Positions 1 to 30,906 of a stretch of 64,000 bases of DNA are shown in pieces (the first letter of the stretch is position 1; each line of letters opens with the position of its first letter). The notes beneath the pieces were generated by a model, which was not told the origin of the DNA, did not search any database, and saw only the letters and a list, made by a program, of their open reading frames with translations. Source of the stretch: a phage; sequence record PZ386972.1. One strand, written 5' to 3'. The position numbers and the translations under genes are program-made.

Positions 1-2476
1 GCATCTTATGAAAGAATGCAGCTCTATCATTCGGTTTATCTTTGATATATTGTTCAACATGCTCAACCGTTACATCTTTAATAGACTCAAGATGATAATA
101 GCGAACAAGAAGTAGTTTAGCTTCATACGCATCTGCATGGCGGGGGGCACAATAATCAGGAGTTGAGTACAAAATGGCTTTGATTCGCTCTTCTGTATAC
201 TCTTTACCTGCACCTTCGATAGTTCCCCAGCTTTCACTGAAAATATCAATAGTTGCACCCTGATCAAGCAAGTAATAACGTAAAGTACTAGTATAGTTCC
301 TAGACTCCAGCTCCCTGCGACGTGCGTATAATTGCTGTGCTAACTCCAGCCAACCCTCATCAATGTTATATTGTTCAGAACCTGCGGAAAATCCACTCGT
401 AGATTTATCAATAAAATAATAAATGTTCTGAGCGCCACGGTCGCGCCTGATTGCTTGAAAACGCATGTTTGGCGCTTGGTTACTAGTTCTAGTAATAACG
501 AATACGTTATCAAAATAGTTGAAGTCAACACCACTCGTTACGGATGGACTACATAATAAGCAATCAATTTGTTGGTCAATTAGCTCATTAGTTGTGTAAT
601 CCAGAATACGTCGAATATCCACATCAGACGTAGAGTTTGAGTGGATTTCCTTAACTAACGCACCCGTATTACGACGCAATGCCATGCCCTTCTCATTCAG
701 TTCATCCGGACCACAGTCAGATACTAGGATAGATTTCTCACCCATCTCTAGGGAAGTCTGAAGTGCAACCCAAATACTGGATTCATCAGGGAACTCATAA
801 GCATGAGCTTTTGACAGCATTTTACGATGATGATTATAAAATGCAACCGGTTTATCAAACTCAATCAAAGAACCATATGCTTCAATTGTTTCTGCACTAA
901 TATCCCCATCAGATAATATAATGATTTTTGCAGTTGCAAGAATATCCCGAAGAACCTGAATGCACTCGCGACGTTGTTTAACAACCGGGGCGAATAATAG
1001 GTCATTCATTACTGCATCACATTCATCAATAAAGATTGCATCAATTTGACCAATAAAACTCTTGAACTTATGCAAAGAGTGAATAGTTGTGGACATACGG
1101 TCAATAGCACCACGCTTAAAATTAAGCATATCTACAGACTTATCATATTGTCCTGCGCTAAATTTCTTAGCGTTTGAAGATACCAGCGCTCTAGTATTTG
1201 TAACTGCTAAGAAATTACCTTTAATAACTCCTGAATCTAACCAACGCACAACCGCCGTGGTTTTACCTGTACCTAGACTTGCTTTTACAAAAGTCATATA
1301 ACCTTCTGGCGGTACAGTATTTAATTTCAAAAAGTTATCAGTTTCTAGGGAATTAGTTTCTAGCTTTTTAAGTGGAATACCTTTTAAAACATCAGGTATA
1401 TCACGTTTAGAATTATTAACAAACGCTTTCAGAGCCTGTTTACGACCGTTATTAAAGTAATCTTGAATATTACGACTATTATCTTTAGTTGCAATATATT
1501 CTGATAAGGCTGGACGGATTTCTTTTTCTAGCCATGCAAAATCAACACCATCCTCTAAAGCTCTGTGATAGAGTTTAGGTATGATACGTAGATACACTCC
1601 ATCCTCAGCTTCTTCTAGTTCGCTGATAGTTTCCTCTACTTTATCAGAGGCAGCTTTTTTACCTTTAATTTGATCGAGTAAAGAGTAAAACTCCTCCTTA
1701 AACTCACCTCTAGTTGTTTCATAGTCAACCAGATTATTAGGTAAATTTACTTTAGAACCCTTAACAAATACCAGACGTGAAGCACCCTCCGCCTTAAACG
1801 GATCTACTATACCATCAGTAAATAACGGATCTGCAAAATAATGGAGCTGTACGGAAGAGTAATAAGCTAAGTCGGCAATATCAAAGCCATACTTTTGTCT
1901 ACTACTTTCGTTGATAGATGTAAATAAGAATTTGATTTGACCCTGAGTTACTTTAACATTAGATTCTAGTATTAGGTGCATTCGGATACCTGGTTTTAGC
2001 CCAGCCGAAGACGATGCATGAGCGATAAACCCTGCATCGAGAGGAAACATGTCCTCACTAATACTATTTAACATTCTAATAATATGTCGAGCCATGCCAA
2101 CAAGATCAAACTTGTTACAACCACCTGTATCTACAATACCATCCACGTCCATTGCAATTATATGACTTGGATTAGATACATTAAAGTTGCCCTTCTTACG
2201 CCGCACATTATTTTTAGGTGCAAGACATCGACCTCGTACCGCAACGATATGAGGATCAGACGTTAAACGTCTCATAAGAGGGAGCATTTCTACTAGGGTT
2301 TGAGGATCAACTTCATCAATTACATCAAACTTGAAGGGCATTGAAGCTGGTTTACCTTCAGAATGCTTTGAGGAAAATCTTTTAGCAAAAAGATAGTCTT
2401 CTGCTTTAACTTCTCGCCAAATGCCTGTGGCTAAATCGCGATGAAATCCTGCATGACCTTGTAGGATTGAGAACAC
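1..2476 (-). CDS. SF2-type helicase/ATPase with large N-terminal domain (possible replication initiator or origin-binding helicase); 3' end runs past window start
   Basis: Uninterrupted minus-strand frame from GTG at about 2474-2476 (AGGAG 7 nt upstream) to position 1; translation shows Walker A GTGKTT and Walker B FIDECD; absent from ORF track because no stop lies inside the window. Confidence 0.55.
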   Translation of the reverse strand, partial: MFSILQGHAGFHRDLATGIWREVKAEDYLFAKRFSSKHSEGKPASMPFKFDVIDEVDPQTLVEMLPLMRRLTSDPHIVAVRGRCLAPKNNVRRKKGNFNVSNPSHIIAMDVDGIVDTGGCNKFDLVGMARHIIRMLNSISEDMFPLDAGFIAHASSSAGLKPGIRMHLILESNVKVTQGQIKFLFTSINESSRQKYGFDIADLAYYSSVQLHYFADPLFTDGIVDPFKAEGASRLVFVKGSKVNLPNNLVDYETTRGEFKEEFYSLLDQIKGKKAASDKVEETISELEEAEDGVYLRIIPKLYHRALEDGVDFAWLEKEIRPALSEYIATKDNSRNIQDYFNNGRKQALKAFVNNSKRDIPDVLKGIPLKKLETNSLETDNFLKLNTVPPEGYMTFVKASLGTGKTTAVVRWLDSGVIKGNFLAVTNTRALVSSNAKKFSAGQYDKSVDMLNFKRGAIDRMSTTIHSLHKFKSFIGQIDAIFIDECDAVMNDLLFAPVVKQRRECIQVLRDILATAKIIILSDGDISAETIEAYGSLIEFDKPVAFYNHHRKMLSKAHAYEFPDESSIWVALQTSLEMGEKSILVSDCGPDELNEKGMALRRNTGALVKEIHSNSTSDVDIRRILDYTTNELIDQQIDCLLCSPSVTSGVDFNYFDNVFVITRTSNQAPNMRFQAIRRDRGAQNIYYFIDKSTSGFSAGSEQYNIDEGWLELAQQLYARRRELESRNYTSTLRYYLLDQGATIDIFSESWGTIEGAGKEYTEERIKAILYSTPDYCAPRHADAYEAKLLLVRYYHLESIKDVTVEHVEQYIKDKPNDRAAFFHKM

Positions 2477-3095
2477 AACAATACTCCTGTGTTGGAAATG
2501 AAATAAGTTTTCTTTAGGACTATTCAGAAAGAATAGAACAACTGTTACTGTCAATTTCTCAACAAATTAATTGCAAATACTGAAGTGGGGTGGCAACTTC
2601 CACTTTCACGCTGCGCTGCTGCTTTGCTATATCGCACAAATCCTTGAGGATGGCCGCTAAGCCAGATTTGCTCACCTAATGCTTCATATACTAGCTCATA
2701 CTAGATGCAATATAACTTACAGAATCACGTCTCGGAGTTTTTCACTCCTCCCGTCTCACTTCACAACCACCTCTATCTAGGTTGCTTCGAGGCCTTACCA
2801 GGGTTCCTACGGGACGCAGATCGCTAAGTATTCTATTAACTATTTGTTTAAAAACTAACACGTAACAGTTAAAACAACCCTTAATGTGGCAGCCTAACTG
2901 TTCCGTATCGCGGATTGTAAACAAGAAAAATTAGCAAAATCAATTTTTACTAATGTCTCTCAATTCAATATAAATATTATACCAAGATTTTGGGCATCAT
3001 GCAAGTAAAATTTTCCGGATGGTGCTATCATTGGTCTTAAGTACGGATAAAACCGAGCCAAAATGACTCGGTAATCAGAGTTCAGCTAATAAAAA
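2477..3095. other. about 620 nt non-coding spacer, GC-richer than flanks, no ORF of 60 aa or more
   Basis: Only short ORFs in six-frame track; several local inverted repeats visible. Confidence 0.4.
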
Positions 3096-6060: not shown

Positions 6061-7935
6061 TTATTTAGCTCGAATATCCTGATGTTTCACCCTACCCATA
6101 ACTTCATGTTGTTTGCCGGGGTTAAATGGACGAGCACCCGGATTTCCAAGATACCCACAAACTCGACGAGTTACTTCAAGAGTTTCTGGGTCATGATTAC
6201 CACAGATAGGGCACTTAAATCCATCTTCGGATGCTATTGTTTCACCTAAGAATCCACATTTACCACAAGAATCTACTGGAGTATTAATACCGAAGTAATG
6301 AACCTTACTAGCAGCATAATTAATAACCCATTCGAGTGCATCTGGGAATCGTTTCATATCCGGTAGTTCTACATAGGAAATACACCCACCAGAAGCAATC
6401 GGAGTAAAGTTAGATTCATAATCAAATTTCACGTTAGGAGCAACTTTACGTTCTACATCAAGGTGATGCGAGTTAGTATAGTATCCTTTGGACAGAATAT
6501 CTTCATGCTCCGGGAAATATTCACGATCTAGACGACAAAAACGGTCACATAGGGACTCTGATGGTGTAGCATACAGGCTATAACCTAACTTAGTTTCTTC
6601 CTTCTTCTGATCTACCCTATCCCGCATGTACTGCAGTACACGCTGAACAAACTTGATGCAGGTCTCGGACATTGTGTCTATATCTTTGCCAAACATGAAC
6701 TGTAGCATTTCATGGCAACCAATATACCCTAGAGATACAGAAGCACGGTTATAGAAATGATCGAATACGTATTCATCAGGCTCCAAGCGCAGTCCAAAGG
6801 CTCCTGACATATAGAGGATGGGTGCAGCTTTAGCTTGAATGTATTTTAAGCGATCAACTCTCCACTCCAATGCTTTTAACGCTGTATCCACACGTAGCTC
6901 AAGCAAATCAAAGAATAGGTCAATATTTCCTTCAGCTTCGATAGCAATTCTAGGCAAGTTTACAGAAACAACACCTAAGTTATTACGACCGGCAGTTTCA
7001 CCATCTTCTGTAGCAGCTAGGAATGAACGGCAGCCCATAGAAACTTTGTAGTCTCCAGTAACTTCTACAACTTTGTCATAGCTGATATAATCTGGATACA
7101 TACGTTCAGCAGTACATTTCATAGCTAACTTCTTGATGTCATAATTAACATCTCCTGGTTTCATATTTACGCCATCACGAAGCACAAATACCAGTTTCGG
7201 GAAGATAGCTGTACGTTTATTGATACCTAAACCATCCATGCGTACTTTCAGTATTGCTTTCTGTACTAGACGTGCTTCCCAAGAAGTTCCTAGACCAAAA
7301 CCAAAGGTAATAAATGGACTCTGACCATTAGAGTTGAACATCGTATTGATTTCATACTCTAGACCCTGACAAGCATCATAGACTTCTTTTTCAGTCATCT
7401 CCGTAGCCATTACTGATGCTTTGGCTTCATCCTTAGTCCAACGTTTTGCAAAGGCATGATTTTTGTCATAGGATTTACGAACATAAGGAGCTAATACCTC
7501 ATCTAATCGGTCTACAGAAGTACCACCATACTGATGGGAGCTAACCTGTGTGATAATCTGAGCTGTAATAGCCGCCGCAGTAGTAATAGAGTTTGGAGTA
7601 CTAATTTCAGCATTACCAACCTTCATACCATTCTTCAACATATCTTCCAGAGCTACCAGACAACAATTAGTCATGCCTAATGCAGCATAATCAGCATCAT
7701 GGAAATGAATATCCCCAATCATATGAGCATTTCGAATCTGAATTGGCATTTCTTCTAGAATCAGATACTTACTCAATTCACCTGCAAGCATATCCCTCTG
7801 TGTAGGGAAACGTTCTGAGGGTTTATTGGCATTATTAAACAGCAGCTCTTCATCTGCTGACCCTTCGATAATCTCTTTGCAGTTTCTAATTAACGCCTGC
7901 ATTTCTTTATACTTTAGTTCTTCATTGCGATTCAT
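6061..7935 (-). CDS. nrdD: anaerobic ribonucleoside-triphosphate reductase (class III RNR)
   Basis: 624 aa; C-terminal glycyl-radical motif RVCGYLG and Cys-rich CxxC...CxxC zinc ribbon; overall NrdD-like sequence. Confidence 0.85.
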   Translation of the reverse strand: MNRNEELKYKEMQALIRNCKEIIEGSADEELLFNNANKPSERFPTQRDMLAGELSKYLILEEMPIQIRNAHMIGDIHFHDADYAALGMTNCCLVALEDMLKNGMKVGNAEISTPNSITTAAAITAQIITQVSSHQYGGTSVDRLDEVLAPYVRKSYDKNHAFAKRWTKDEAKASVMATEMTEKEVYDACQGLEYEINTMFNSNGQSPFITFGFGLGTSWEARLVQKAILKVRMDGLGINKRTAIFPKLVFVLRDGVNMKPGDVNYDIKKLAMKCTAERMYPDYISYDKVVEVTGDYKVSMGCRSFLAATEDGETAGRNNLGVVSVNLPRIAIEAEGNIDLFFDLLELRVDTALKALEWRVDRLKYIQAKAAPILYMSGAFGLRLEPDEYVFDHFYNRASVSLGYIGCHEMLQFMFGKDIDTMSETCIKFVQRVLQYMRDRVDQKKEETKLGYSLYATPSESLCDRFCRLDREYFPEHEDILSKGYYTNSHHLDVERKVAPNVKFDYESNFTPIASGGCISYVELPDMKRFPDALEWVINYAASKVHYFGINTPVDSCGKCGFLGETIASEDGFKCPICGNHDPETLEVTRRVCGYLGNPGARPFNPGKQHEVMGRVKHQDIRAK

Positions 7936-7964
7936 TATACTCTCCTTCTCTAACTAAGACTACT

Positions 7965-7993
7965 ATTATAACTCATTCGAGGGCGGATGTCAA
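7965..7993 (-). promoter_or_regulatory. sigma70 consensus promoter (TTGACA-17-TATAAT on minus strand) driving nrdD
   Basis: Reverse complement of the plus strand reads TTGACA, 17 nt spacer, TATAAT. Confidence 0.6.
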
Positions 7994-8044
7994 CAATATT
8001 TTACTATAAAGTTCTGTAACATGATCTGAGTCAAAAAATTTTAT

Positions 8045-8073
8045 TTGCCAATTTCTATTAAAAATTGTATAAT
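8045..8073 (+). promoter_or_regulatory. promoter TTGCCA-17-TATAAT followed by palindrome CACGCACTCGTGCACGCG
   Basis: Seen in sequence upstream of phoH. Confidence 0.5.
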
Positions 8074-8186
8074 CACGCACTCGTGCACGCGATATAAAAT
8101 GATTATCTAGTATCACACATCTCACGTTAAAAGCAAGCAAATTTTTTATTTAAATGCAATATCATAGGCTTATTTAAAATTGTAGT

Positions 8187-8214
8187 TGCTTTTTACTGTA
8201 TATATTGGTATAAT
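8187..8214 (+). promoter_or_regulatory. T5-type early promoter (TTGCTT-16-TATAAT)
   Basis: Member of the dispersed promoter module family. Confidence 0.55.
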
Positions 8215-8287
8215 ATATTTGTAAGTTGATAAACAAGATCTTTTTGTTGATCCTCTGTTAGCGAAGTACACTATAGGAGTGTTATTT

Positions 8288-20760: not shown

Positions 20761-21195
20761 ATGGGTACGAATATGCTTCGTGTGCTGCGAGAATTAATTG
20801 AAAAAGCTCGCAAACACGGTGATACTGTGTCAGTCAAGCACCTTAGTACGATTTTAGGCGACTTACAACGAATTGATAAAGATTGCGTATCTAGACTAGA
20901 GTTTACTAACTGGGTTAAATCACAGTTCAAAGCAATTGAGAATACAATGACTTCTGCTGCAAAAGCAAATATCGAATATACTCCAGATGCTGAATATCTC
21001 GACTTGTTAGCAGGTCTAGAGCATGAATATGCTCTGGAGCAGTTAACTGAAGTTCAGATTCGTGAGTATTTTGCAGAACTGGTTAAATTAAACCCAGGTA
21101 TTACCAAAGCTCTATTAATGAAAACTATTAAGGCAGAATTTCCTGGACGTTATGATGGTAAAACAACTGCTTTGATTGCTAGTGAATTTTTCTAA
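20761..21195 (+). CDS. hypothetical protein
   Basis: ORF track. Confidence 0.45.
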   Translation: MGTNMLRVLRELIEKARKHGDTVSVKHLSTILGDLQRIDKDCVSRLEFTNWVKSQFKAIENTMTSAAKANIEYTPDAEYLDLLAGLEHEYALEQLTEVQIREYFAELVKLNPGITKALLMKTIKAEFPGRYDGKTTALIASEFF

Positions 21196-21203
21196 AAATT
21201 CAT

Positions 21204-21232
21204 TTGCTAAATACTTATAAATTCTGTATAAT
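21204..21232 (+). promoter_or_regulatory. T5-type early promoter at head of tRNA region
   Basis: AAAAATTCATTTGCTAAA...TATAAT. Confidence 0.6.
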
Positions 21233-21239
21233 ATATTCA

Positions 21240-22029
21240 TAAATTAGGGAACAGCGAGCCGATTACGCTGAGTGCAGAATCCCAACCGGAGCGCATTGAA
21301 TAGAGTCGGTGGGTTAGTTGTAAAACTAGTACACAGGGGGCGGCAATCCCGGTTAGTGGCTAGAACGTGTAAAATGAGGCGTCTGAAACCTCTCCCCTAA
21401 ACTCTTCTCTGATTTATAAATAGTGGGGTGTGGAAATCACTTATGTAGTAACACTGCCGTCCTAGTATAATTGGTATTATCAAGCCGTAACTGGTGGAAG
21501 ATGTAGGTTCGAATCCTACGGTCGGTAAGAACTGGATAACTGATGCTTTTAACGTAAAAGCTTCCTAGGTTAGTTGCGCACTGCCTAAACCACGCGGTAG
21601 TTGGTTCCAGACTAACCAACCAGTCTGCTGAATAGTTTTATTACGATTTAACTATGTCCAGGCTAAAGAAGAACTTTAGAAGGTATTCTAGGATAGTGAA
21701 GTTCTTTCTCCATATCGGAGTAGTTTTTCAAGCTATCCACAAAGTGGGAAATGCTGACATGAGAGATGTCACTAATGGTGCACAATAGCACAGGTAATTC
21801 GCGATAACTCCTGTTGAGTAGCAGCAAAAGGTGGGAAGTCATGACCCCAAGCCTAACCGAGTCCTCAATATACCGCAGGACATAACCACTAAGTCACCCT
21901 GACTTAAACTGGAAAATAATAGACGTTACTGTATTTTGTCTTGAAATACTTAATGAGTGAGACTTATGACTCTCCCGGTATCGTCTGTATTTTTAAGAGT
22001 TTTTACGAGAGTTCTTAAAAATACTTAAA
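21240..22029 (+). ncRNA. about 790 nt structured non-coding transcript region (candidate stable RNAs)
   Basis: No ORF of 60 aa or more on plus strand; multiple hairpins such as AAGAACTT/AAGTTCTT and TTTTTAAGAGT/GAGTTCTTAAAAA; lies between promoter and first tRNA. Confidence 0.3.
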
Positions 22030-22101
22030 CGGGGTGTAGTCTAAGGGAGAGGCAGGAGTCTTCTAAATTCCTTTATGCAGGTTCGAATCCTGTCACCTCG
22101 G
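22030..22101 (+). tRNA. tRNA-Arg (anticodon TCT)
   Basis: Acceptor CGGGGTG/CACCTCG, anticodon loop CTTCTAA, T-arm GCAGG-TTCGAAT-CCTGT, encoded CCA. Confidence 0.7.
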
Positions 22102-22138
22102 CCAATTTTATTAACTGTAACTAAAACAAAGGAAATAT

Positions 22139-23086
22139 ATGTTTAATACTAAAAATATGAAAGAACTGACTTCTGAGCAGAAAGTAATTCGTACTATTAA
22201 ACGTTGGGGTATTGGTGCTGTAGTTGGTTTAGCAGGCTTGATTCTAGCCTTTAATTCATATACTATTGTTTCTGATGGTACGGTTAAAACTCAAACATTC
22301 CTGGGTAAAGTAGATCCTAATCCAGTATTGCCGGGTTTCCATCTTGTAAACCCGTTTGCATCTTTCGATACTTTTAGTACAAAAGATATTGCTGTAAAAT
22401 TAGATAAACTTCAGGTTCCTAGTCAGGATAAGTTTAAATCCACTGTTGACCTGACTGTTATGTTGCAATTTGATGGTTCTAAGGCACCGATTAACCGTAT
22501 TAACGCAGGTACTCAGGATCAGGCACTAGACAAGTATGTAACTGAAAAATTACTGTCTACTATTCGTGAGTTTGGTAAGTCTGTACCTAAAGCACAAGAT
22601 TTGTTTGATGCTAAAATTCAGGCTCAATTGCAAACTGCAATTCAACAGGAAGTTGAAGAGTATGCGCGCCCATATGGTTACACAGTTAAGCAGGTATTCC
22701 TTCAGGATATTACCTTGCCGCCAGTAATCATGGAACAGGTACAGAATACCAAAGTTCGTGAAGAGCAAGTTAATGCTGCGAAAGCTGAACTTGCTCGCGT
22801 TGAACAGGAAGCACAGCAAAAAGTTAAACAAGCAGAAGCAGATCGTGAAGCTCGTAACAACCAAGCTATTGCTAATGAACGTGACGCAGATGCTAAACTG
22901 TACGCAGCTAAGAAAGAAGCTGAAGCTAACGCCGCATTGCAACGTACCATTACTCCTGAAATGATTCGTTGGAAACAACTGGAAGTTGAAATGATCCGTG
23001 CTCAGAAGTATCAAGGTGGTGTACCTCAGACTGTGGTAGGTACTGGCTACGATGGTCAAATGATCATGGATATGCGTAATAAATAA
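22139..23086 (+). CDS. SPFH/band-7 (HflC/prohibitin-like) membrane protein
   Basis: N-terminal TM helix, SPFH-like core, C-terminal Ala/Glu-rich coiled coil. Confidence 0.55.
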   Translation: MFNTKNMKELTSEQKVIRTIKRWGIGAVVGLAGLILAFNSYTIVSDGTVKTQTFLGKVDPNPVLPGFHLVNPFASFDTFSTKDIAVKLDKLQVPSQDKFKSTVDLTVMLQFDGSKAPINRINAGTQDQALDKYVTEKLLSTIREFGKSVPKAQDLFDAKIQAQLQTAIQQEVEEYARPYGYTVKQVFLQDITLPPVIMEQVQNTKVREEQVNAAKAELARVEQEAQQKVKQAEADREARNNQAIANERDADAKLYAAKKEAEANAALQRTITPEMIRWKQLEVEMIRAQKYQGGVPQTVVGTGYDGQMIMDMRNK

Positions 23087-23110
23087 TACCCGCATGTAAC
23101 ATCTGAAGTA

Positions 23111-23146
23111 AGCCCTGCGTTTCCTGGAGAGCGCAGGGCTTTTCTA
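23111..23146 (+). terminator. rho-independent terminator
   Basis: AGCCCTGCG...CGCAGGGCT hairpin followed by TTTTC. Confidence 0.6.
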
Positions 23147-23817: not shown

Positions 23818-23892
23818 GGTTCTCAAGCTCATATGGTATGAGCACCCGGCTCATAACCGGAAGGTACGTAGGTTCGAATCCTCGGGGAGCCA
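23818..23892 (+). tRNA. tRNA with CAT anticodon (Met or Ile2)
   Basis: Acceptor GGTTCTC/GGGAGCC with wobbles, D-arm GCTC...GAGC, anticodon loop CTCATAA, TTCGAAT T-loop (imperfect T stem), CCA encoded. Confidence 0.6.
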
Positions 23893-29668: not shown

Positions 29669-29760
29669 GGTAGGTCAATCCAATGGCTGGCGCTGGACTC
29701 CGACTTGAAATCGGTTGATCGTAGTGATACGGTGTAAGGGTTCGATCCCCTTACCTACCT
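29669..29760 (+). tRNA. tRNA-Ser (anticodon TGA), class II
   Basis: Acceptor GGTAGGT/ACCTACC, loop CTTGAAA, long variable arm, T-arm AAGGG-TTCGATC-CCCTT, CCA encoded. Confidence 0.7.
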
Positions 29761-30822: not shown

Positions 30823-30833
30823 CCAAGTAATAA

Positions 30834-30906
30834 GCGGTTAAGCACACGGGTTGTGTCGCAGGCCTTCCAAGCCTCGCTGAGTAGGGTTCGATTCCCTCTA
30901 GCCGCT
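30834..30906 (+). tRNA. tRNA-Gly (anticodon TCC)
   Basis: Acceptor GCGGTTA/TAGCCGC, loop CTTCCAA, TTCGATT T-loop, CCA encoded. Confidence 0.6.

What the first reader, a model, noticed from the sequence alone, without database searches (positions are those of the whole stretch)
21240..22029. 790-nt promoter-proximal non-coding region at the head of the tRNA cluster
A T5-type promoter at 21204-21232 is followed by about 800 nt with no ORF and many hairpins before the first tRNA (Arg, 22030). A transcribed region this long without coding capacity in a compact phage genome suggests one or more stable small RNAs or a large processed leader.
Basis: seen in the sequence. Interest (0 to 1): 0.6.

Follow-up and report, generated by a model that had tools for sequence, protein, structure and literature searches.

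The report
T5 "RNAX": large structured phage RNA
The 790-base gap at the head of this T5-like phage's tRNA cluster is the already annotated stable "RNAX", which comparison shows to be a large, many-domain folded RNA conserved across the T5 phage family, with function still unknown.

Summary
A consensus-like promoter (TTGCTA-17-TATAAT, 21204-21232) is followed by about 790 nt without a credible ORF, ending at tRNA-Arg (22030). The region is not new: the GenBank records of T5, BF23, phage 5 and DT571/2 annotate it as misc_RNA "rnaX / RNAX, stable RNA with unknown functions", driven by promoter P16-17. No Rfam family matches except tRNA, which hits an embedded tRNA-like arm (21456-21527).

Comparison across phage genomes and metagenome contigs adds the following. 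RNAX is a string of independently closed structural domains with invariant junctions and swappable peripheral hairpins. Homologues of 0.6-1.3 kb occur in Tequintavirus, Epseptimavirus, Sugarlandvirus, Pantoea and Erwinia phages, Pectobacterium DU_PP_V and Proteus PM135. Covariation is strong: 89-90% of cells are paired against 32-51% in slid controls, and 17 pairs carry double changes in each of two blocks. The core is better conserved than silent sites of the neighbouring genes.

The tRNA-like arm has no conserved anticodon loop and is replaced by plain hairpins in some phages, so it is not a decoding tRNA.

The most likely reading is a trans-acting folded RNA cut from the tRNA-Arg precursor, analogous to GOLLD and ROOL. 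What it does remains open.

The parts
21204..21232 (+). Promoter P16-17 (-35 TTGCTA, 17-nt spacer, -10 TATAAT)
   Evidence: Consensus scan gives 10 of 12 matches. Annotated as promoter P16-17 in BF23 and T5. The same layout is seen in FZ41, DU_PP_V and PM135.
21246..22029 (+). RNAX transcript as annotated in BF23 (784 nt). From the -10 position the true start may be about 21239.
   Evidence: BF23 misc_RNA rnaX maps to window 21246-22029 (97.9% identity). The start was not determined here.
21246..21410 (+). Domain 1 (5' domain). Closing helix AGGGAA (21246-51) / TTCTCT (21405-10). Hairpin CAGCG (21252-56) / CGCTG (21266-70). Its loop GCCGA (21258-62) pairs with TCGGT (21306-10).
   Evidence: Covariation. 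Closing helix: AGAGAA/TTCTCT, AAAGAA/TTCTTT (DU_PP_V), AGGGTA/TACCCT (PM135). Hairpin: CAGCA/TGCTG. Loop pairing: GCAGA/TCTGT. The interior is deleted in T5 and DT571/2 and replaced by an HNH gene in JLBYU43 and MET.
21423..21593 (+). Domain 2 (conserved core). Closing helix P1 is GTGG (21423-26) / CCAC (21590-93). Invariant joiners are GGGTG..CGAA, AACACTG, TAAGA and AAACCAC.
   Evidence: Alignment A2: 41 pairs, 90% of cells paired against 32-41% when slid, 0 of 500 shuffles as high. P1 covaries to ACGG/CCGT (DU_PP_V) and ATGGG/CCCAT (PM135).
21436..21544 (+). Long arm P2. It is a 12-bp leader-trailer helix (21436-49 with 21531-44) with conserved C.C and G.G mismatches, carrying the tRNA-like element at its tip.
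   Evidence: All cells paired and 5 pairs with double changes. RNAalifold recovers it independently. The centre TTAT/ATAA becomes CAC/GTG in DU_PP_V.
21456..21527 (+). tRNA-like arm. It has a tRNA-type acceptor stem with a U.U mismatch at 5:68, a D arm and a T arm (GTAGG TTCGAAT CCTAC). The 'anticodon' arm is irregular, and no CCA is encoded.
   Evidence: Rfam tRNA 35.5 bits; ARAGORN does not call it. Acceptor and T stems covary. The anticodon arm is hypervariable and the whole arm is replaced in Eps7, SH9 and PM135.
21545..21586 (+). Hairpins P3 (21545-51 / 21555-61) and P4 (21567-73 / 21581-86)
   Evidence: P3 pair 2:16 switches between C-G and G-C, and pair 5:13 is U-A, A-U or C-G. P4 expands into several hairpins in EscoHU1, Eps7 and Sugarlandvirus.
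21597..21740 (+). Domain 3 (variable middle). Hairpins at 21600-06/21614-20, 21632-37/21650-55, 21663-68/21674-79, and 21691-96/21733-38 enclosing 21708-11/21717-20.
   Evidence: Compensatory changes are seen by eye: GTTGATT/AATCAAC, AAAGTA/TACTTT, GGTAG/CTACC. Whole modules are swapped between lineages.
21744..21889 (+). Domain 4. Closing helix GTGG (21744-47) / CCAC (21886-89). Hairpins at 21755-60/21766-71, 21790-94/21810-14, 21833-35/21845-47 and 21861-65/21877-81.
   Evidence: Alignment A3: 89% paired against 34-51% when slid; 17 pairs with double changes against 3-8. The closing helix becomes ATGG/CCGT in DU_PP_V.
21838..21845 (+). Invariant palindromic loop GUCAUGAC
   Evidence: Present in every homologue examined across all clades.
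21799..21804 (+). Palindrome UCGCGA in the loop of hairpin 21790-21814
   Evidence: The palindrome is kept with different sequences: CGCGCG (T5), CTCGAG (26175I, SB13), TCCGCGGA (Sugarlandvirus). Only CGCG remains in AAS21 and L026, and none in DU_PP_V.
21892..22024 (+). 3' domain. Hairpin AGTCA/TGACT (21892-96 / 21900-04), closing helix AGACG/CGTCT (21921-25 / 21982-86), and a terminal 17-bp hairpin (21987-22003 / 22008-22024) with a UACG loop.
   Evidence: The terminal hairpin is 96.7% paired. It is conserved in Sugarlandvirus, AAS21 and DU_PP_V even where an ORF follows instead of the tRNA. The closing helix covaries by eye (GACGG/CCGTC, GACTG/CAGTC), but MAFFT misaligns it (47.5% paired).
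22030..22104 (+). tRNA-Arg(UCU), whose 5' processing site defines the annotated 3' end of RNAX
   Evidence: ARAGORN, Rfam 49.3 bits, and the T5 and BF23 annotations.

Best explanation
The interval is the gene for RNAX, a stable, non-coding, multi-domain structured RNA of T5-like phages.

Shown here:
- It lies on the + strand behind a strong sigma-70 promoter and runs up to tRNA-Arg.
- It has no conserved reading frame.
- It folds into a string of independently closed domains: a 5' domain, a four-helix core bearing a tRNA-like arm, a variable middle, a second GTGG/CCAC-closed domain and a 3' domain with a long terminal hairpin.
- These helices are maintained by compensatory substitutions across at least five clades of Demerecviridae.
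- The junction sequences are invariant, while peripheral hairpins are exchanged, lost or expanded.

Inferred:
- The primary transcript continues into tRNA-Arg.
- RNase P cleavage at the tRNA 5' end sets the RNAX 3' end. In phages with an intervening ORF, endonuclease cutting plus 3' trimming back to the terminal hairpin would do this instead.
- The 5' and 3' terminal helices protect the RNA, so it accumulates early in infection.
- It then acts in trans as a folded particle, either RNA-only or bound to protein, rather than by antisense pairing or as a leader.

Most speculative step:
- The constant position at the head of the tRNA cluster, the tRNA-elbow mimic and the neighbouring YqeY-type gene point to an activity linked to tRNA handling or tRNA-directed host factors.
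- The invariant self-complementary loops point to self-association, as in GOLLD, ROOL and OLE.
For: Identity with the annotated RNAX:
- 97.9% to BF23 and 93% to T5 over the shared part, with the same promoter and tRNA-Arg boundary.

Non-coding:
- The longest ORF is 60 aa, the random expectation.
- Modules differ by indels and swaps that no frame survives.

Structure:
- Block A: 90% of 818 cells paired against 32-41% when slid; 17 pairs with double changes against 1-4; 0 of 500 shuffles as high.
- Block C: 89% against 34-51%; 17 against 3-8; 0 of 500.
- RNAalifold independently finds P2, the acceptor stem, the T stem and P3.
- Distant clades add fully compensated versions of P1, P2b, P3 and the 5'-domain helices.

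Selection:
- The core is 75% identical between the window and Epseptimavirus, where third codon positions of the flanking genes are 41-66% identical.
- Block A is still about 75% identical to Pantoea phage AAS21, where flanking third positions are 34-42% identical.

Breadth:
- 526 phage records match.
- Full-length homologues: FZ41, about 1.27 kb, AAS21 and KEY, DU_PP_V, PM135.
- None in 185,579 bacterial and archaeal genomes.

Strand:
- Numerous G-U pairs, the promoter and the tRNA orientation all fit the + strand.

Analogy:
- GOLLD and ROOL are phage-encoded, often near tRNA islands, have a less conserved 5' region, and sometimes carry tRNAs in the linker (PMC12286853).
Against: - No expression or stability data were available here. 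'Stable RNA' rests on the depositors' annotation.
- The MFE z-score is weak (-1.13).
- Large parts are dispensable in nature. The 5' domain is absent in T5 itself, the tRNA-like arm is absent in Eps7, SH9 and PM135, and module order differs in PM135. No single architecture is obligatory.
- The T5 tRNA region tolerates large deletions in the laboratory (PMC12483538). Whether any of them remove rnaX was not checked.
- The sequence sample is dominated by close relatives, and the covariation counts are not corrected for phylogeny.
- The link to tRNA metabolism is circumstantial. The YqeY gene is not adjacent in Sugarlandvirus.
- The second palindromic loop is lost in DU_PP_V.
Confidence: 0.65

Rival explanations
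1. The transcript is a polycistronic precursor of several independent small stable RNAs. These would be one per closed domain, including an excised tRNA-like RNA that receives CCA. It would not be one large functional RNA.
For: - The domains are closed separately and can be lost, swapped or reordered independently. This is how tRNA clusters behave.
- The same cluster encodes other small stable RNAs: RNA I, III, IV and 2H, and the tRNA-like RNAs 1-3.
- The tRNA-like arm has a 7-bp acceptor stem, which could be an RNase P substrate.
Against: - The depositors annotate one RNA of 636-784 nt.
- The tRNA-like arm is held inside a conserved 12-bp leader-trailer helix with invariant flanks, which looks like an arm of a larger fold.
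- Its 1:72 position is unpaired in half of the sequences.
- Domain order is the same in four of the five clades.
Confidence: 0.22
2. It is a cis-acting leader. Its only role would be to control the processing, stability or yield of tRNA-Arg and the downstream SPFH lipoprotein mRNA.
For: - It sits directly between the promoter and tRNA-Arg, with the SPFH gene next, as one transcription unit up to terminator ter1.
- 21960-21976 is 82% complementary to the D/anticodon region of tRNA-Arg.
Against: - In MET, 26175I, FZ41, AAS21, KEY and PM135 an ORF separates the RNA from tRNA-Arg, yet the RNA and its terminal hairpin are kept.
- The complementarity to tRNA-Arg is absent in the Epseptimavirus-type 3' domain.
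- 0.6-1.3 kb of covarying multi-domain structure far exceeds known tRNA leaders.
Confidence: 0.08
3. It is non-functional debris, made of decayed tRNA genes and scars of homing-endonuclease traffic in a recombination hot spot.
For: - It contains a tRNA-shaped pseudogene-like element.
- HNH genes insert here.
- The T5 tRNA region is described as a deletion hot spot (PMC12483538).
Against: - Compensatory changes keep about 90% of the proposed pairs intact.
- Invariant 8-20 nt junction motifs persist across clades whose flanking genes are near saturation at silent sites.
Confidence: 0.03
4. It is a DNA-level element, such as a replication origin, a packaging or nick signal, or a protein-binding array built from inverted repeats and palindromes.
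For: GC-rich palindromes and many inverted repeats are present.
Against: - Helices contain many G-U pairs, which would be A-C mismatches on the other strand or irrelevant in duplex DNA.
- Long-range nested pairings with conserved asymmetric junctions fit an RNA fold.
- The region lies inside a mapped transcription unit.
Confidence: 0.02

Closest known systems
rnaX / RNAX of phages T5, BF23, phage 5 and DT571/2 (GenBank misc_RNA, 'stable RNA with unknown functions')
   Same: It has the same locus, promoter P16-17 and tRNA-Arg boundary, with 93-98% identity. The window carries the BF23-type full-length form with the 5' domain.
   Different: Nothing essential differs; this is that gene. The records give no structure, family or function. 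The held literature has no description of it, and Rfam has no family for it.
GOLLD (RF01998) and ROOL (RF03087), the large 'ornate' phage RNAs
   Same: All are 0.6-1.3 kb, phage-encoded and located at tRNA islands. All have many covarying helices and a variable 5' part with a more constant rest. A tRNA or tRNA-like element can sit inside, loops capable of kissing are present, and function is unknown (PMC12286853; PMC7567579).
   Different: cmscan finds no match at E up to 10, so homology is not detectable. The hosts are strictly lytic enterobacterial siphoviruses. Oligomerisation has not been tested.
Other small stable RNAs co-transcribed with phage tRNAs: T5/BF23 RNA I, III, IV and 2H, the tRNA-like RNAs 1-3, and T4 species 1 and 2 RNAs (the last from my own knowledge)
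   Same: They lie in the same transcription and processing context, and their function is also unknown.
   Different: They are 70-170 nt. RNAX is 4-10 times larger and multi-domain. No paralogy was found within the window beyond the T-arm.
tRNA mimics inside larger RNAs: bacterial YrlA Y RNAs and the tmRNA tRNA-like domain
   Same: A conserved T arm, D arm and acceptor stem occur without a decoding anticodon arm (PMC4201824).
   Different: In YrlA the arms are permuted and the protein-binding stem sits at the anticodon position. It is encoded next to Ro60, which these phages lack. ARAGORN finds no tmRNA.

Membership tests
RNAX (T5/BF23 annotated stable RNA) | Located between promoter P16-17 and tRNA-Arg(UCU), downstream of the phrog_1460 gene and upstream of the SPFH lipoprotein gene | tested here: met
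   The gene order is the same as in the BF23, T5 and DT571/2 records.
RNAX (T5/BF23 annotated stable RNA) | Sequence homology to the annotated rnaX | tested here: met
   97.9% identity to BF23 over 798 nt. 93% to T5 and 95.7% to DT571/2 over the 3' 79%.
RNAX (T5/BF23 annotated stable RNA) | Accumulates as a stable RNA in infected cells | not testable with these tools
   Only the depositors' note supports this. No RNA-seq or northern data were reachable.
tRNA (RF00005), for the element at 21456-21527 | Cloverleaf scoring above the Rfam gathering threshold | tested here: met
   35.5 bits against 29. Relatives score 26.6-39.2 bits. ARAGORN does not call it.
tRNA (RF00005), for the element at 21456-21527 | Conserved 5-bp anticodon stem with a 7-nt loop and a constant anticodon | tested here: not met
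   The loops and stems differ completely between lineages. Forms include GTAACT, CTTCACC, tetraloop-capped stems, a 35-nt extended arm, and replacement of the whole arm.
tRNA (RF00005), for the element at 21456-21527 | Free acceptor end with a paired 1:72 and a 3' CCA or a processable trailer | tested here: inconclusive
   1:72 is G-U in 10 sequences and unpaired in the other 10 of 20. No CCA is encoded. The stem continues into a conserved leader-trailer helix.
GOLLD / ROOL | Match to the Rfam covariance models | tested here: not met
   No hit at E up to 1 in the window or at E up to 10 in four diverse homologues.
GOLLD / ROOL | Large phage-encoded RNA with extensive covarying structure next to tRNA genes | tested here: met
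   This is a resemblance in kind, not homology.
GOLLD / ROOL | Homo-oligomeric assembly through conserved intermolecular contacts | not testable with these tools
   The only lead is two self-complementary loops: GUCAUGAC, which is invariant, and UCGCGA, CGCGCG, CUCGAG or UCCGCGGA.
tmRNA, RNase P RNA, group I/II introns, riboswitches, known ribozymes | Match to the family model | tested here: not met
   No Rfam hit. No tmRNA by ARAGORN.
YrlA / Y RNA | Permuted T-AS-D arrangement, a Ro60-binding stem, and a neighbouring Ro60 gene | tested here: not met
   The arm order is tRNA-like, not permuted. The neighbours are YqeY-like and SPFH genes (PMC4201824).

The most novel reading that the evidence does not exclude
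RNAX is the enterobacterial-phage counterpart of GOLLD and ROOL, a new class of large 'ornate' RNA. It would self-assemble through its conserved palindromic loops (GUCAUGAC, UCGCGA) into a dimer or higher particle. It would use its tRNA-elbow arm, possibly with the adjacent phage YqeY protein, to engage tRNAs or tRNA-directed host enzymes or defences early in infection. Because it sits in T5, an E. coli model phage, the unknown biology of tRNA-island-associated giant phage RNAs would become genetically testable.
Probability: 0.2. Interest if true: 0.85.

Novelty: already known. Interest (0 to 1): 0.5.

Why it matters
The existence of the RNA is not news, since it has been in the T5 and BF23 GenBank records for about two decades. 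Neither the searched literature nor Rfam holds any structure, family definition or function for it.

The comparison here shows one of the larger conserved structured RNAs of any well-studied coliphage. It is 0.6-1.3 kb, found across the Demerecviridae, and under stronger constraint than its protein-coding neighbours.

It shares the unexplained hallmarks of GOLLD and ROOL: it is phage-borne, sits at a tRNA island, has a variable 5' part and contains an embedded tRNA-like element. If the resemblance is functional, T5 and E. coli offer deletion genetics, defence-system panels and easy biochemistry for a question that has had structures but no function.

It also has a practical side. Many T5-like genome records place spurious small CDSs or 'tRNA-Sec/Pro/OTHER' calls on this RNA.

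Tried and rejected
- Rfam at permissive thresholds on the window and four diverse homologues gave only tRNA hits. RNase P RNA, tmRNA, introns, riboswitches, ribozymes, GOLLD, ROOL and YrlA are therefore rejected as memberships.
- Coding potential is rejected. ORFs are no longer than chance and are not conserved.
- CsrA-type GGA sponge: my hand tally of GGA motifs in the sequence (about 11) is close to a rough composition-based expectation (about 11). No tool was run for this.
- Hammerhead or k-turn readings of the CUGA...UGAAUAGA motif in the 5' domain were not pursued, as no model supports them.
- A pseudoknot CAGAC/GTCTG around 21608-21626 is not conserved outside Tequintavirus.
- Complementarity of 21960-76 to tRNA-Arg is lineage-specific.
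- Paralogous modules elsewhere in the window: none beyond T-arms.
- RNAalifold's alternative pairing of GTGGGGTG with the P4 region is rejected in favour of P1 with AAACCAC. Only P1 covaries in DU_PP_V and PM135.
- IMG/VR and metagenome scans added few new lineages. Most metagenome hits and all genome hits of the 20-mer were chance.
- Literature searches for RNAX and T5 stable RNAs found nothing in the held library. The Glukhov 2018 deletion paper is not held.
- An apparent ORF-free stretch at 1-3095 was an artefact of a gene running off the window.

Full report
**What is in the window.** The window is a T5-like phage, 99.6% identical to Escherichia phage slur09 over 21150-22150.
- A promoter-like site, TTGCTA-17-TATAAT, lies at 21204-21232.
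- ARAGORN's first tRNA is Arg(tct) at 22030-22104.
- Between them the longest ORF on either strand is 60 aa. That is what shuffled sequence gives (mean 64.5).
Rfam's tRNA model scores 35.5 bits (threshold 29) at 21456-21527, and several records label this element tRNA-OTHER or Pseudo.

**It is already annotated.**
- The curated record of the BF23 tRNA region (NC_042564) carries misc_RNA 'rnaX, RNAX, stable RNA with unknown functions'. It runs from within 'promoter P16-17' to the base before tRNA-Arg, 784 nt, equal to window 21246-22029.
- T5 (AY543070) has the same feature at 719 nt, DT571/2 at 636 nt, and Salmonella phage 5 also has it.
- The same BF23 record lists other stable RNAs in the cluster: RNA I, III, IV and 2H, and the tRNA-like RNAs 1-3.
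- I found no paper on RNAX in the held library.
- No Rfam family other than tRNA hits it.

**Distribution.**
- BLAST finds the region in 526 phage records.
- The part from 21419 onward is shared at about 75% identity with Epseptimavirus.
- Shorter blocks reach Klebsiella Sugarlandvirus, Pantoea AAS21 and Erwinia KEY.
- Reading those loci shows full-length homologues with the same motif order:
  - about 1.27 kb in FZ41, from a similar promoter to the same terminal hairpin;
  - AAS21 and KEY;
  - Pectobacterium DU_PP_V, of the Mccorquodalevirinae;
  - Proteus PM135, of Novosibvirus, with a different module order.
- A 20-mer from the core finds only T5-like contigs in metagenomes and nothing genuine in 185,579 bacterial and archaeal genomes.
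- The RNA is thus a feature of the lytic Demerecviridae.

**Architecture.** Alignments show a chain of separately closed domains.
- Domain 1 (21246-21410) is closed by AGGGAA/TTCTCT.
  - This helix becomes AGAGAA/TTCTCT, AAAGAA/TTCTTT (DU_PP_V) and AGGGTA/TACCCT (PM135).
  - It contains the hairpin CAGCG/CGCTG (CAGCA/TGCTG elsewhere). The loop GCCGA of that hairpin pairs with TCGGT 45 nt downstream (GCAGA/TCTGT elsewhere).
  - Its interior is deleted in T5 and DT571/2 and replaced by an HNH gene in JLBYU43 and MET.
- Domain 2 (21423-21593) is the best conserved.
  - P1 is GTGG/CCAC, changing to ACGG/CCGT and ATGGG/CCCAT.
  - It has a 12-bp arm P2 (21436-49 with 21531-44) and hairpins P3 and P4.
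  - The joiners are invariant: GGGTG..CGAA, AACACTG, TAAGA and AAACCAC.
- Domain 3 (21597-21740) is a set of exchangeable hairpins.
- Domain 4 (21744-21889) is again closed by GTGG/CCAC (ATGG/CCGT in DU_PP_V). It carries the invariant loop GUCAUGAC.
- The 3' domain ends in a 17-bp hairpin with a UACG loop (21987-22024), five bases before tRNA-Arg.

**Covariation tests.** Both counts were made on MAFFT alignments that were not fitted to the structure.

| Block | Alignment | Pairs | Sequences | Cells paired | Paired when slid | Pairs with double changes | Same when slid | Shuffles as high |
|---|---|---|---|---|---|---|---|---|
| A | A2 | 41 | 20 | 90.0% | 32-41% | 17 | 1-4 | 0 of 500 |
| C | A3 | 50 | 16 | 89.3% | 34-51% | 17 | 3-8 | 0 of 500 |

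- The P2 arm is 100% paired, with five double-change pairs.
- RNAalifold recovers P2, the acceptor stem, the T stem and P3 without guidance.
- One proposed helix (21921-25 with 21982-86) fails on the alignment (47.5% paired) because MAFFT shifts it. By eye it covaries.
- G-U pairs are frequent, which fits an RNA of the + strand.
- The counts are not corrected for phylogeny, and close relatives dominate the sample.

**Selection.**
- Between the window and Epseptimavirus phages, third codon positions of the flanking genes are 41-66% identical. The RNAX core is 75% identical.
- Against AAS21, flanking third positions are 34-42% identical. Block A is still about 75% identical, with long invariant runs.
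- The RNA is therefore more constrained than its neighbours.

**The tRNA-like arm.**
- The acceptor and T stems covary like a tRNA's. A U.U mismatch at 5:68 recurs even in DU_PP_V.
- The 'anticodon arm' has no constant form. Variants are a 6-nt loop (window), a 7-nt loop read as tRNA-Sec(tca) (MET), tetraloop-capped stems (AAS21, DU_PP_V) and a long extended arm (Sugarlandvirus, L075).
- In Eps7, SH9 and PM135 the whole cloverleaf is replaced by a plain hairpin on the same closing stem.
- The 1:72 position is unpaired in half of the sequences, and the stem continues into the conserved P2 helix.
- It is therefore a peripheral tRNA-shaped arm of a larger fold, not a decoding tRNA.

**Leads on function.**
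- The upstream gene (20761-21195; phrog_1460, labelled 'tRNA amidotransferase') is a full-length YqeY homologue. A profile search against PDB sequences hits B. subtilis YqeY 1ng6 at E = 2.7e-6.
- The YqeY-type tail domain of GatB and GatE is implicated in tRNA D-loop recognition, and the YqeY domain of Deinococcus GlnRS enhances tRNA binding (PMC2811023, PMC1865053).
- This gene sits next to the RNAX promoter in most clades, but not in Sugarlandvirus.
- Two loops are self-complementary.
  - GUCAUGAC is invariant everywhere.
  - The loop of hairpin 21790-21814 keeps a GC-rich palindrome with different sequences: TCGCGA, CGCGCG, CTCGAG and TCCGCGGA. It is reduced to CGCG in AAS21 and L026 and absent in DU_PP_V.
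- Six-base palindromes are common by chance, so this is suggestive only.
- GOLLD and ROOL share several traits with RNAX. They are phage-borne, lie near tRNA islands, have a less conserved 5' region, sometimes carry tRNAs in the linker, and assemble through kissing loops (PMC12286853).

**Verdict.**
- The object is already known as RNAX, so novelty is low.
- What remains open, and is sharpened here, is that RNAX is a family-wide, multi-domain structured RNA of unknown function, absent from Rfam.
- My best mechanistic reading has four steps:
  - transcription from P16-17;
  - release from the tRNA-Arg precursor by RNase P, or by trimming to the terminal hairpin where an ORF intervenes;
  - accumulation;
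  - action in trans as a folded particle, probably connected with tRNA handling.
- Only the fold, the conservation and the genomic context are shown. Processing, stability, partners and self-association are inferred.

Noticed in passing
window 20761-21195: The gene just upstream of the RNAX promoter (phrog_1460, 'tRNA amidotransferase') is a full-length YqeY homologue (PDB 1ng6, E = 2.7e-6 with a 7-sequence profile). YqeY-type domains are implicated in tRNA D-loop binding. The gene keeps this position in T5-like, Epseptimavirus, AAS21/KEY and PM135 phages, and lies one gene further upstream in DU_PP_V, but is not adjacent in Sugarlandvirus.
   Followed up: partly
L007 717-1199; L008 717-1199 and 1787-2296; L009 2168-2677: Homing-endonuclease traffic occurs around RNAX. 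An HNH gene replaces the promoter and 5' domain in JLBYU43 and MET_P1_137_112. A 169-aa ORF is inserted between RNAX and tRNA-Arg in MET and 26175I.
   Followed up: no
L011 1312-2226; L013 1725-1951; L016 1335-2369; L001 1623-2193: Many small 'hypothetical protein' CDSs, and tRNA-Sec/Pro/OTHER calls, are annotated on top of RNAX in public records (SB13, AAS21, KEY, Torridgeon, Sugarland, MM-1). They overlap covarying helices and are probably spurious.
   Followed up: partly
window 21960-21976 and 22045-22061: A 17-nt stretch of the RNAX 3' domain is 82% complementary to the D-loop/anticodon-stem region of the adjacent tRNA-Arg. It is present only in the Tequintavirus-type 3' domain.
   Followed up: partly
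window 21892-21904 and 21838-21845: The hairpin AGUCA-CCC-UGACU is the invariant loop palindrome GUCAUGAC split by a loop. DU_PP_V has AAGUC-UACGC-AUGACUU. This might allow alternative or intermolecular pairing; it is unexplained.
   Followed up: no
window 23818-23892, 29669-29759, 30833-30906: Further tRNA-like Rfam hits in the tRNA cluster are not called by ARAGORN (40.3, 37.6 and 30.9 bits). BF23 annotates extra tRNAs and stable or tRNA-like RNAs in this cluster (RNA I, III, IV, 2H, 1-3), to which these hits may correspond.
   Followed up: no
L106 6958-7290: Proteus phage PM135 has an unannotated 110-aa ORF between its RNAX-like RNA and tRNA-Arg. The whole 2.1-kb stretch 6143-8270 is unannotated, although it holds the RNA and at least four tRNAs.
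   Followed up: no
window 23110-23141: A strong terminator-like hairpin (13 bp) sits downstream of the SPFH gene. It matches the 'bidirectional terminator ter1' of the BF23 and T5 records and marks the end of the RNAX-tRNA-Arg-SPFH transcription unit.
   Followed up: no
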